Assembly (NCBI RefSeq): GCF_056746865.1
Contig: NZ_CM163382.1
Length of the DNA stretch: 64,000 nucleotides
Strand: one strand, 5' to 3'
A program made the position numbers. Positions 56,001-59,000 of the stretch are shown piece after piece (positions within the stretch are counted from its first letter, which is position 1; each line of letters starts with the position of its first letter).

Positions 56001-59000
56001 GCCCGTGCCATTTCACTGGTTGAAGAGACACGTCCATTATTACCAGGCGTGCGCGAAGCCGTTGCGTTATGCAAAGAACAAGGTTTATTGGTGGGACTGG
56101 CCTCCGCGTCACCACTACATATGCTGGAAAAAGTGTTGACCATGTTTGACTTACGCGACAGTTTCGATGCCCTCGCCTCGGCTGAAAAACTGCCTTACAG
56201 CAAGCCGCATCCGCAAGTATATCTCGACTGCGCAGCAAAACTGGGCGTTGACCCACTGACCTGCGTAGCGCTGGAAGATTCAGTAAATGGCATGATCGCC
56301 TCTAAAGCAGCCCGCATGCGTTCCATCGTCGTTCCTGCGCCAGAAGCGCAAAATGATCCACGTTTTGTATTAGCAAACGTCAAACTCTCATCACTGACAG
56401 AACTCACCGCAAAAGACCTTCTCGGTTAATGACCAGGGGCAGTGATCACGCTGCCCCTGGTTCTTTATCTGAATTTGCATTCAACTGACGGATTAATCGT
56501 CAATTTAAGAGAAAGAGTTACACCGTCACCACTTCCGCGCACTGTATAAAAATCCTATACTGTACGTATCGACAGTTTAGTGAGTTTTATCATGACGGCG
56601 GAAGGTCACCTTCTCTTTTCTATTGCTTGTGCGGTATTTGCCAAAAATGCCGAGCTGACGCCCGTGCTGGCACAGGGTGACTGGTGGCATATTGTCCCTT
56701 CCGCAATCCTGACGTGTTTGTTACCGGACATCGATCACCCAAAGTCGTTTCTTGGGCAGCGATTAAAGTGGATATCAAAACCGATCGCCCGCGCTTTTGG
56801 GCATCGTGGTTTTACCCACAGTCTGCTGGCGGTATTTGCGCTGCTGGCAACCTTTTACCTTAAGGTTCCTGAAAGCTGGTTCATTCCGGCTGATGCGCTA
56901 CAAGGAATGGTGCTGGGTTATTTGAGCCACATACTTGCCGATATGCTGACACCCGCCGGTGTTCCCCTGCTCTGGCCATGCCGCTGGCGTTTCCGCTTGC
57001 CTATCCTGGTTCCCCAAAAGGGCAACCAACTGGAACGTTTTATCTGCATGGCATTATTTGTCTGGTCGGTATGGATGCCCCATTCATTACCCGAAAACAG
57101 CGCTGTTCGTTGGTCATCGCAAATGATCAATACTTTGCAGATCCAGTTTCATCGGCTTATTAAGCATCAGGTTGAATACTAAAAAGGCAAAAATCACCTT
57201 TCTGGAATAAGCAATTCCATTTGAATATAAGAGCCAGCTCACAGTTCTGTTAATCTTGCGCCAACACTATGACTGCTACGCAGTGATAGAAATAATAAGA
57301 TCAGGAGAACGGGGATGAACTTTCCATTAATTGCGAACATCGTGGTGTTCGTTGTACTGCTGTTTGCGCTGGCTCAGACCCGCCATAAACAGTGGAGTCT
57401 GGCGAAAAAAGTGCTGGTGGGTCTGGTGATGGGTGTGGTTTTTGGCCTTGCCCTGCATACCATTTATGGTTCTGACAGCCAGGTACTTAAAGATTCTGTA
57501 CAGTGGTTTAACATTGTTGGTAACGGCTATGTTCAACTGCTGCAAATGATCGTTATGCCGTTAGTCTTCGCCTCTATTCTGAGCGCGGTTGCCCGTCTGC
57601 ATAACGCATCTCAGTTAGGCAAAATCAGTTTTCTGACCATCGGTACGCTTTTGTTTACCACGCTGATTGCGGCGCTGGTCGGTGTGCTGGTCACCAACCT
57701 GTTTGGTTTGACGGCTGAAGGTCTGGTTCAGGGTGGTGCAGAAACTGCACGTCTGAACGCCATTGAAAGTAACTATGTTGGTAAAGTCTCTGACCTGAGC
57801 GTTCCGCAGCTGGTCTTGTCCTTTATCCCGAAAAACCCGTTTGCCGATCTGACCGGAGCCAATCCGACGTCAATTATCAGCGTGGTAATTTTTGCCGCAT
57901 TCCTCGGTGTAGCTGCGCTGAAACTGCTGAAGGATGATGCGCCGAAAGGTGAACGCGTCTTAACCGCTATCGATACCCTGCAAAGCTGGGTAATGAAGCT
58001 GGTTCGCCTGGTCATGCAGTTGACCCCTTACGGCGTTCTGGCGCTGATGACCAAAGTGGTTGCAGGTTCTAACCTGCAAGACATCATCAAACTGGGAAGT
58101 TTCGTTGTCGCGTCCTACCTCGGTCTTCTGATTATGTTTGCAGTGCATGGCCTTCTGCTGGGTATTAATGGCGTGAGCCCGCTGAAGTACTTCCGTAAGG
58201 TATGGCCAGTACTGACGTTTGCCTTTACCAGCCGTTCCAGTGCTGCGTCTATCCCACTGAATGTGGAAGCACAAACGCGTCGTCTGGGTGTTCCTGAATC
58301 CATCGCCAGTTTCGCCGCCTCTTTCGGTGCAACCATTGGTCAGAACGGCTGTGCCGGTTTGTATCCGGCGATGCTGGCGGTGATGGTTGCGCCTACGGTT
58401 GGCATTAACCCGATGGACCCGATGTGGATTGCGACGCTGGTCGGTATTGTTACCGTTAGTTCCGCAGGCGTTGCCGGTGTCGGTGGTGGTGCAACTTTCG
58501 CCGCACTGATTGTGCTGCCTGCGATGGGCCTGCCAGTTACCCTGGTGGCGCTGTTAATCTCCGTTGAACCGCTTATCGACATGGGGCGTACGGCGCTAAA
58601 CGTTAGTGGCTCGATGACCGCTGGCACGCTGACCAGCCAGTGGCTGAAGCAAACCGATAAAGCCATTCTGGATAGCGAAGACGACGCCGAACTGGCACAC
58701 CGTTAATTCTTATGCTGGCAACGGTCCGTTTTGTATAGGAGCCGTTGCCTTACTTTTTAAATGTTCCATCGCGGCGATGCATACTGACTCATATTTAAAC
58801 AGATCGTCAGCGAAAAAAATGGCTAACTTATCGATACATTCCTGACTCAATGAATGTGCCTGTAGCGAAAAGCTTAAAACCTCATACCCAAGACGTTTTC
58901 TAAGTGAACTATCTGAAATACTCATAATCTCTTCAAGCACACCACTTCCCATTCCCGGAAGATTCAGTGGATTAAAAAGAAGATTGACATTAAGTATTGA

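What the first reader, a model, noticed from the sequence alone, without database searches (positions are those of the whole stretch)
56542..56575. Tandem LexA boxes in front of ydjM
A perfect CTGT-N8-ACAG box and an adjacent degenerate one sit 15-50 bp upstream of the ydjM start, consistent with ydjM being an SOS regulon member. Worth noting because ydjM function is still poorly defined.
Basis: partly seen in the sequence, partly recalled or inferred. Interest (0 to 1): 0.2.

Follow-up and report, generated by a model that had tools for sequence, protein, structure and literature searches.

The report
Known tandem LexA operator of ydjM
Two adjacent binding sites for the DNA-damage repressor LexA do sit on the promoter of the E. 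coli membrane-protein gene ydjM, but this is a textbook, experimentally established member of the SOS regulon, so the finding is correct and ordinary.

Summary
The window is E. coli chromosome (hxpB-ydjM-tcyP). A perfect CTGT-N8-ACAG box (box A, core 56560-56575) and a degenerate box 18 bp upstream (box B, core 56542-56557) end 14 and 32 nt before the ydjM ATG at 56592. With a weight matrix built from 14 LexA sites that I verified in K-12 DNA, they are the best and second-best sites among 63,981 window positions. No such pair arose in 200 shuffles. In 80 Enterobacteriaceae genomes, 78 keep both boxes and 77 keep the 18-bp register. Tandem LexA sites at ydjM were reported experimentally in 2000. 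ydjM is listed in SOS reviews with heterology index 9.0. It is induced 2.5-fold by AZT, with 8.6-fold dependence on LexA cleavage (wild type versus lexA3). Salmonella has the same two boxes at the same distances. My only additions are inferences. The invariant CTATACT that forms box B's right arm and box A's left flank is probably the -10 element, so two LexA dimers would cover the spacer, the -10 and the start site. A conserved block upstream of the boxes (56510-56539) is unexplained. Novelty: already known. Interest: low.

The parts
56558..56577 (+). LexA box A (promoter-proximal, stronger): TACTGTACGTATCGACAGTT; core CTGT-N8-ACAG at 56560-56575
   Evidence: Sequence. Best matrix score in the window, 14.5 bits. 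CTG/CAG arms 98% conserved against 86% for the centre in 80 Enterobacteriaceae loci. Published HI 9.0.
56540..56559 (+). LexA box B (distal, weak, effectively a half-site): CACTGTATAAAAATCCTATA; core 56542-56557. The left arm CTGTAT is consensus; the right arm is CTA instead of CAG.
   Evidence: Second-best matrix score in the window, 11.7 bits. Left arm kept 18 bp upstream of box A in 77 of 80 loci. Listed as a LexA site of b1728 at -52 in PMC4576408. Tandem binding reported experimentally according to PMC4951493.
56556..56561 (+). Inferred -10 hexamer TATACT, preceded by C at -13 (CTATACT). It is formed by box B's right arm plus box A's left flank.
   Evidence: CTATACTG is invariant in 80 of 80 loci, including L012 and L024, which have lost box B's left arm and the alternative TATAAA. 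This is inference only: no start site was mapped, and the tool's strict sigma-70 scan found no promoter here.
56533..56538 (+). Candidate weak -35 (TTCCGC, 2 of 6 matches to TTGACA), 17 bp upstream of TATACT. Position 56538 is C in the window and T in K-12 and O157.
   Evidence: Columns mostly 88-100% conserved. Polymorphism seen. Inference only.
56510..56532 (+). Conserved upstream block AGAAAGAGTTACACCGTCACCAC of unknown role. It would lie at about -58 to -36 if transcription starts near 56568.
   Evidence: Mean column conservation of 56510-56539 is 0.93, against 0.69 for 56462-56509.
56592..57182 (+). ydjM coding sequence (196 aa plus stop), the regulated gene: an inner-membrane protein annotated as a metal-dependent hydrolase
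   Evidence: ORF. RefSeq start and product. Pfam PF04307 YdjM, E = 7e-36.
56431..56462 (+). Intrinsic terminator-like hairpin after hxpB (yniC), which insulates the ydjM promoter from upstream transcription
   Evidence: 14-pair stem with 9 GC pairs, followed by a T-rich tail. The hxpB stop is at 56429.

Best explanation
This is the SOS operator of the E. coli ydjM promoter. In undamaged cells one LexA dimer sits on box A (56558-77). A second dimer sits on the abutting weak box B (56540-59), probably helped by the first, because box B has only one good half-site. Together they cover about 38 bp that include the likely -10 element (TATACT, 56556-61), the spacer and the likely start site near 56568. 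This would exclude RNA polymerase. After DNA damage, RecA filaments trigger LexA self-cleavage, the operator empties and ydjM is transcribed. Its product is a PF04307 inner-membrane protein, a putative metal-dependent hydrolase. What is shown here: the sequence, its statistical exceptionality, and its strict conservation, including the 18-bp register. What is shown in the literature: LexA binding to tandem sites, and LexA-cleavage-dependent induction. What is inferred: the identity of the -10 and the start site, cooperativity between the dimers, and occlusion as the repression mechanism.
For: - **Matrix scoring:** boxes A and B are ranks 1 and 2 of 63,981 window positions with a matrix from 14 verified K-12 sites, and 0 of 200 shuffles give such a pair. 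An independent heterology-index calculation gave 8.4 and 10.1, also ranks 1 and 2.
- **Conservation across genera:** 78 of 80 Enterobacteriaceae loci keep a CTG-N10-CAG box with a CTGTA arm upstream, 77 of them at exactly 18 bp. The substitution pattern is that of a LexA footprint, with invariant arms and a variable centre.
- **Conservation within E. coli:** the exact 38-bp operator is present in 4038 of 5421 complete genomes, and 1380 more fall in the 95-99% identity band. K-12 is identical in both boxes.
- **Hint that box B adds repression:** in the Table 1 list, only dinB (HI 9.4, 6.9-fold) approaches ydjM's 8.6-fold LexA dependence among the neighbouring entries of similar HI. uvrD, dinG, rmuC and ftsK show 1.7-1.9-fold.
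Against: - Both boxes score below every training site.
- Box B lacks the CAG arm, so on its own it would be a poor LexA site.
- Part of box B's conservation can be explained by promoter function (CTATACT) and by sharing TA with box A.
- The strict sigma-70 scan found no promoter in 56300-56600, and the candidate -35 is poor, so the promoter assignment is not secure.
- I could not read the primary paper. Whether both boxes were individually footprinted rests on a secondary citation.
- An 18-bp centre spacing differs from lexA (21), recN (22) and ColE1 cea (15), so no common geometry argues for cooperativity.
- In Salmonella a ydjM-gfp fusion gave no detectable fluorescence.
Confidence: 0.93

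Rival explanations
1. Only box A is a working LexA operator. Box B looks like a LexA box because its sequence is constrained by other functions: its right arm is the -10 element, and its left arm plus A-tract is promoter spacer or a site for another factor.
For: Box B has CTA where CAG is expected. CTATACTG is invariant in 80 of 80 loci, as expected for a -10. Two genera (L012, L024) have lost the left arm yet keep the gene and box A. One E. coli strain carries a 7-bp deletion in box B. RegPrecise listed only one site, according to PMC4576408.
Against: The left arm CTGTA lies in what would be the promoter spacer, where no conservation is expected. Yet it is 97-99% conserved, always in an 18-bp register with box A. 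Box B is the second-best LexA match in 64 kb. Tandem binding is cited as experimentally reported. ydjM's LexA dependence is high for its HI.
Confidence: 0.15
2. The boxes are chance matches in an AT-rich promoter and have no regulatory role.
For: The bare 16-mer pattern is not significantly enriched in the window.
Against: Ranks 1 and 2 of 63,981 positions, and 0 of 200 shuffles with such a pair. Conservation across about 20 genera. Published LexA-dependent expression.
Confidence: 0.01
3. The palindrome acts at the RNA level, as a 5'-UTR hairpin affecting stability or translation, rather than as a protein-binding DNA site.
For: Box A is a palindrome and would probably be partly transcribed if the start site is near 56568.
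Against: Only 4 bp per arm can pair. Substitutions in the orthologues follow the LexA tolerance pattern (CTGT to CTGG with ACAG unchanged would break a stem). No Rfam family matches here. LexA dependence is documented.
Confidence: 0.01

Closest known systems
The E. coli K-12 ydjM (b1728) SOS operator itself (Fernandez de Henestrosa et al. 2000; Courcelle et al. 2001)
   Same: Both boxes are base-for-base identical to K-12 MG1655, with the same distances to the ATG. The published second-site sequence CACTGTATAAAAATCCTATA matches exactly.
   Different: There is a single C/T polymorphism at 56538, two bases upstream of box B. Nothing in the operator differs.
Salmonella enterica ydjM SOS boxes (PMC8072944)
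   Same: Two boxes lie 14 and 32 nt from the start codon, with HI 9.12 and 12.85. The S. enterica loci L030 and L046 show the same -34/-52 arrangement.
   Different: The central bases of box A differ (TACTGTATGAATTGACAGTT), and box B begins with T rather than C.
Colicin double SOS boxes (for example ColE1 cea)
   Same: [quoted passage not shown] PMC4951493 says cooperative LexA binding was demonstrated for such colicin operators. The ColE1 operator was verified in NC_001371.1 with scores of 21.0 and 16.0 bits.
   Different: Centre-to-centre distance is 15 bp in ColE1 and 18 bp in ydjM. Both colicin boxes keep a CAG arm, whereas ydjM box B does not. In ColE1 the strong box is distal; in ydjM it is proximal.
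Tandem LexA boxes of lexA and recN
   Same: Two LexA sites lie side by side in one SOS promoter.
   Different: Spacing is 21 bp (lexA) and 22 bp (recN) with non-overlapping 20-mers. Both sites there are strong, at 19-25 bits.
LexA-regulated YdjM-domain gene of Staphylococcus aureus (SAOUHSC_02424 operon)
   Same: A PF04307-type protein is under LexA control in a distant phylum (PMC11442139). This suggests an old link between this protein family and the SOS response.
   Different: The box is a single Gram-positive type SOS box (CGAAAATATGTTCG), and the gene sits in a three-gene operon with UDPGP and HlyIII genes.

Membership tests
E. coli-type LexA (SOS) box | 20-bp imperfect palindrome TACTG(TA)5CAGTA with CTG-N10-CAG arms | tested here: met
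   Box A has perfect CTGT-N8-ACAG arms, scores 14.5 bits and is rank 1 in the window. Box B meets this only in part: left arm perfect, right arm CTA, 11.7 bits, rank 2.
E. coli-type LexA (SOS) box | Located in or overlapping the promoter of the regulated gene | tested here: inconclusive
   The boxes end 14 and 32 nt upstream of the annotated ATG, in a 129-nt intergenic region downstream of the hxpB terminator. Overlap with the -10 (TATACT) is inferred from conservation. No start-site data were found.
E. coli-type LexA (SOS) box | Conserved in front of orthologous genes | tested here: met
   78 of 80 Enterobacteriaceae loci keep both boxes, 77 of them at 18-bp spacing. 80 of 80 keep box A.
E. 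coli-type LexA (SOS) box | Bound by LexA protein in vitro or in vivo | not testable with these tools
   Literature only. PMC4951493 cites experimental tandem LexA sites at ydjM. The primary papers are not held.
SOS (LexA) regulon member | Induced by DNA damage in a manner that needs LexA cleavage | not testable with these tools
   Literature only. 2.5-fold AZT induction and 8.6-fold wild type versus lexA3 dependence. Time-course induction up to log2 2.6. Listed in an SOS review table.
Colicin-type overlapping double SOS box | Strong plus weak box overlapping at terminal positions | tested here: met
   The 20-mers share TA at 56558-59, with scores of 14.5 and 11.7 bits.
Colicin-type overlapping double SOS box | Same register as the colicin operators (15 bp centre-to-centre in ColE1) | tested here: not met
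   18 bp in ydjM against 15 bp in ColE1. It works like a colicin operator but is not the same architecture.
Colicin-type overlapping double SOS box | Cooperative binding of two LexA dimers | not testable with these tools
   Only indirect hints: the fixed 18-bp register and a high LexA dependence for its HI.
Pfam PF04307 (YdjM) for the regulated gene | Profile match above the gathering score | tested here: met
   123.8 bits against a cut-off of 29, E = 7e-36, residues 1-158. No solved relative by sequence.

The most novel reading that the evidence does not exclude
The ydjM operator may be a distinct class of compound SOS operator. In it, a LexA half-site (box B) is fused to the -10 element and depends on a fixed 18-bp overlap with box A for cooperative occupancy. 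That would give tighter repression than HI 9 predicts. The invariant block just upstream (56510-56539, with the GTTACACC/GTCACCAC repeat) may bind a second, unidentified regulator that adds a non-SOS input, for example membrane stress. ydjM was among the genes selected from the TisB-expression transcriptome in PMC11575346.
Probability: 0.15. Interest if true: 0.3.

Novelty: already known. Interest (0 to 1): 0.08.

Why it matters
It matters little as a discovery. The site, its tandem nature and the LexA-dependent induction of ydjM have been in the literature since 2000-2001 and are confirmed by recent RNA-seq. The open question is what YdjM does during the SOS response. [quoted passage not shown] Its fold has been linked by profile comparison to Zn-dependent phospholipase C and S1-P1 nucleases (PMC8557891). 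LexA control recurs for a YdjM-domain gene in S. aureus (PMC11442139). The operator is extremely conserved, with the same register across about 20 enterobacterial genera. This argues that tight SOS control of this membrane protein is under strong selection, and that is a reason to study the protein rather than the boxes.

Tried and rejected
- **Primary papers:** Fernandez de Henestrosa 2000, Courcelle 2001 and Wade 2005 are not held, so in-vitro binding rests on secondary citation.
- **Text search for the box sequences:** only the box B 20-mer was found, in PMC4576408.
- **Published start site:** the Cappable-seq supplements held as text contain no ydjM entry or nearby coordinates, so the promoter assignment stays an inference.
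- **Strict sigma-70 scan:** no promoter was found in 56300-56600.
- **TATAAA (56545-50) as the -10:** rejected, because L012 and L024 have lost it (GATAAA, GGCAAA) while keeping CTATACT and the upstream block, and no -35 fits at a 16-18 bp spacer.
- **GTG at 56580 as the start codon:** rejected. It is not conserved in the orthologues, and RefSeq annotates the ATG.
- **The other perfect CTGT-N8-ACAG at 1322:** it lies inside a 542-aa ORF and is not among the top-scoring matrix sites, so I treat it as chance.
- **Known RNA family in the region:** none found.
- **bioRxiv 2024.07.01.601547:** its 'YdjM' is a misprint for YjdM and is irrelevant.
- **Not attempted:** I did not predict the YdjM structure or run the large protein searches, because they would not change the verdict on the boxes.

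Full report
**Identity of the locus.** The 871 bases around the finding are 100% identical to many complete E. coli chromosomes and are present in 5423 of 5426 genomes. They are annotated as hxpB (yniC) followed by ydjM, 'metal-dependent hydrolase'. In K-12 MG1655 the gene order is yniA, yniB, hxpB, ydjM (b1728), tcyP (ydjN), ydjO. This matches the ORFs in the window. The ydjM product matches Pfam PF04307 (YdjM) at E = 7e-36.

**The observation.** Window 56540-56577 reads CACTGTATAAAAATCCTATACTGTACGTATCGACAGTT.
- Box A is a perfect CTGT-N8-ACAG at 56560-56575 (20-mer 56558-56577).
- Box B is CTGTATAAAAATCCTA at 56542-56557 (20-mer 56540-56559). Its left arm is consensus and its right arm is CTA instead of CAG.
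- The two 20-mers share the dinucleotide TA, and their centres are 18 bp apart.
- RefSeq starts ydjM at the ATG at 56592. The upstream in-frame GTG at 56580 is not conserved in the orthologues.
- The boxes therefore end 14 and 32 nt before the start codon.

**Is it more than chance?** The bare 16-mer pattern is not convincing. It occurs twice in the window against 0.64 expected, and 12 of 100 shuffles reach two. The other copy, at 1322, lies inside a 542-aa ORF.

I therefore built a LexA matrix that does not include ydjM. I recalled 14 LexA boxes of recA, lexA (two), uvrA/ssb, uvrB, uvrD, sulA, umuDC, recN (two), dinB, dinD, dinI and yebG. I fetched those promoter regions from NC_000913.3 and found every 20-mer there exactly.

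With the symmetrised log-odds matrix, box A scores 14.5 bits and box B 11.7 bits. These are the best and second-best of all 63,981 positions in the window. Dinucleotide shuffles give on average 0.115 and 0.715 sites at those thresholds, and none of 200 shuffles contains such a pair 14-25 bp apart.

A heterology-index calculation on a larger recalled set gave 8.4 and 10.1, again ranks 1 and 2. That index correlates at r = 0.83 with the published values in PMC11228462. Both boxes score below all training sites (16.5-27.7 bits), so they are moderate and weak operators.

**Comparative evidence.** A scan of one genome per species returned 80 loci encoding YdjM at 85-99% identity. They come from Escherichia, Citrobacter, Salmonella, Enterobacter, Lelliottia, Leclercia, Kosakonia, Raoultella, Atlantibacter, Franconibacter, Cedecea, Phytobacter, Trabulsiella and others.
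- All 80 have a CTG-N10-CAG box A at about -34.
- 78 also have a CTGTA arm upstream, 77 of them exactly 18 bp away and one at 19 bp.
- Within box A the arms are 98% conserved and the central seven bases 86%.
- The observed changes (CTGT to CTGG, variable centre) are ones that known LexA sites tolerate.
- Mean column conservation is 0.69 for 56462-56509 and 0.93-0.95 for 56510-56577.
- Within E. coli the exact 38-bp operator occurs in 4038 of 5421 complete genomes, and 1380 more fall in the 95-99% identity band.
- K-12 and O157:H7 are identical to the window in both boxes and differ only at 56538.
- One strain (NIPH17_0036) has a 7-bp deletion that removes box B's right part.

**What is already known.**
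- PMC4951493 states that tandem LexA-binding sites were experimentally reported for E. coli ydjM by Fernandez de Henestrosa et al. 2000.
- PMC4576408 lists the box B 20-mer at -52 of b1728 as a LexA site additional to the one in RegPrecise.
- The SOS review PMC6590174 lists ydjM among LexA-regulated genes.
- PMC11228462 Table 1 gives HI 9.0, 2.5-fold induction by AZT and 8.6-fold dependence on LexA cleavage, from wild type versus lexA3.
- PMC11002266 shows induction over a ciprofloxacin time course.
- PMC8072944 reports two SOS boxes 14 and 32 nt from the Salmonella ydjM start, with HI 9.12 and 12.85. This is the geometry I see in the window and in the Salmonella loci L030 and L046.
- From my own recollection, the 2000 paper used Northern blots in lexA+, lexA(Def) and lexA(Ind-) cells. 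I could not open that paper or the 2001 and 2005 genome-wide papers.

**How it most likely works.** CTATACTG (56555-56562) is invariant in all 80 loci. Two genera (L012 Citrobacter amalonaticus, L024 Intestinirhabdus alba) have lost box B's left arm, and with it the alternative hexamer TATAAA. They retain CTATACT, box A and the upstream block.

I therefore infer that TATACT (56556-61) is the -10 element. It would be paired with a poor -35 (TTCCGC, 56533-38) at 17 bp and a start site near 56568, inside box A. On this reading box B's degenerate right arm is degenerate because it doubles as the -10. Two LexA dimers would cover the spacer, the -10 and the start site, and so block RNA polymerase.

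Box B has one good half-site, so its occupancy probably depends on the dimer at box A. Two observations fit this without proving it:
- The register is fixed at 18 bp.
- ydjM shows 8.6-fold LexA dependence, whereas the neighbouring Table 1 entries of similar HI show 1.7-1.9-fold (uvrD, dinG, rmuC, ftsK). Only dinB, at 6.9-fold, comes close.

The promoter assignment is an inference. The strict sigma-70 scan found nothing here, and I found no mapped start site.

**Comparison with other tandem operators.** I measured the centre-to-centre distances on real sequence.

| Operator | Centre-to-centre (bp) | Scores of the two sites (bits) |
|---|---|---|
| ColE1 cea (verified in NC_001371.1) | 15 | 21.0 and 16.0 |
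| ydjM | 18 | 12.0 and 14.6 (uniform background; 11.7 and 14.5 with the window background) |
| lexA | 21 | 19.4 and 19.9 |
| recN | 22 | 25.2 and 19.6 |

ydjM resembles the colicin design, with strong and weak sites overlapping at their ends, for which cooperative LexA binding is reported. It is not in the same register, and its weak site lacks a CAG arm.

**The regulated gene.** YdjM remains poorly characterised.
- A ydjM deletion had no significant effect on survival after TisB expression (PMC11575346).
- A YdjM-domain gene is also LexA-regulated in S. aureus (PMC11442139).
- No solved structure is detectable by sequence.

**Verdict.** The feature is already known in detail. My additions are inferences from 80 orthologous promoters: the -10 assignment, the strictly conserved 18-bp register and the unexplained conserved block upstream. 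Interest is low.

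Noticed in passing
window 56510-56539: The block AGAAAGAGTTACACCGTCACCACTTCCGCG just upstream of the LexA boxes is as conserved as the boxes across 80 Enterobacteriaceae (mean 0.93, against 0.69 further upstream). 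It contains an 8-bp-period direct repeat, GTTACACC/GTCACCAC. It is not explained by LexA and could be a site for a second regulator or an unusual -35/UP region.
   Followed up: partly
window 56555-56561: The invariant CTATACT (C at -13 plus TATACT) matches what I recall as the sigma-S-preferred -10 consensus. ydjM might therefore also be transcribed by RpoS holoenzyme. This rests on my own knowledge of the consensus and was not tested.
   Followed up: no
window 56500-56512 versus loci L006-L080: Most other genera have TTTGTGACAAAGAG where E. coli has TTTAAGAGAAAGAG. The TGTGA is a CRP-like half-site that is missing in Escherichia. Its significance is unknown.
   Followed up: no
window 57183-57314: The scan found no terminator-like hairpin on the + strand between the ydjM stop (57182) and the tcyP/ydjN start (57315). 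A weak promoter-like site lies at 57269-57296. SOS-induced ydjM transcription might read through into the cystine transporter gene.
   Followed up: no
locus L095 (E. coli NIPH17_0036), aligned to window 56551-56557: A natural 7-bp deletion (AAATCCT or an equivalent placement) removes box B's right part and moves its CTGTAT arm to 11 bp from box A. It is the only clear outlier: lowest identity (92.8%) among 5422 genomes matched with the 111-nt query.
   Followed up: partly
window 56538 and 56553: There are two common polymorphisms. At 56538 the window has C where K-12 and O157:H7 have T, just outside box B. At 56553, in box B's variable centre, strain Ecol_745 has C where the window has T. If this change is widespread it would account for the roughly 1380 genomes in the 95-99% identity band for the operator. 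PMC3444427 had noted substitutions in the ydjM LexA site among EHEC lineages.
   Followed up: partly
window 1322-1337: This is the only other perfect CTGT-N8-ACAG in the window (CTGTTATCGGCAACAG). It lies inside a 542-aa ORF (814-2442, + strand), has a GC-rich centre, and is not among the top matrix scores. It is probably chance.
   Followed up: yes
window 55012-55031: CACTGGATAGATTATTAGCA lies at the 3' end of yniA, facing the yniB stop. It has a LexA-like left half (HI about 12.5, rank 9 in the window). It is probably chance.
   Followed up: no
window 10040-10100, 15705-15812, 41686-41844, 45540-45664: Rfam matches above the gathering score: rydB sRNA (- strand), RprA sRNA (+ strand), STnc540 sRNA (- strand) and the Phe leader (pheST, - strand). 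All are expected for this part of the E. coli chromosome.
   Followed up: no
window 58710-59525 (- strand): The 271-aa ydjO product has no Pfam match at E <= 0.001. K-12 annotates it only as 'protein YdjO'.
   Followed up: no
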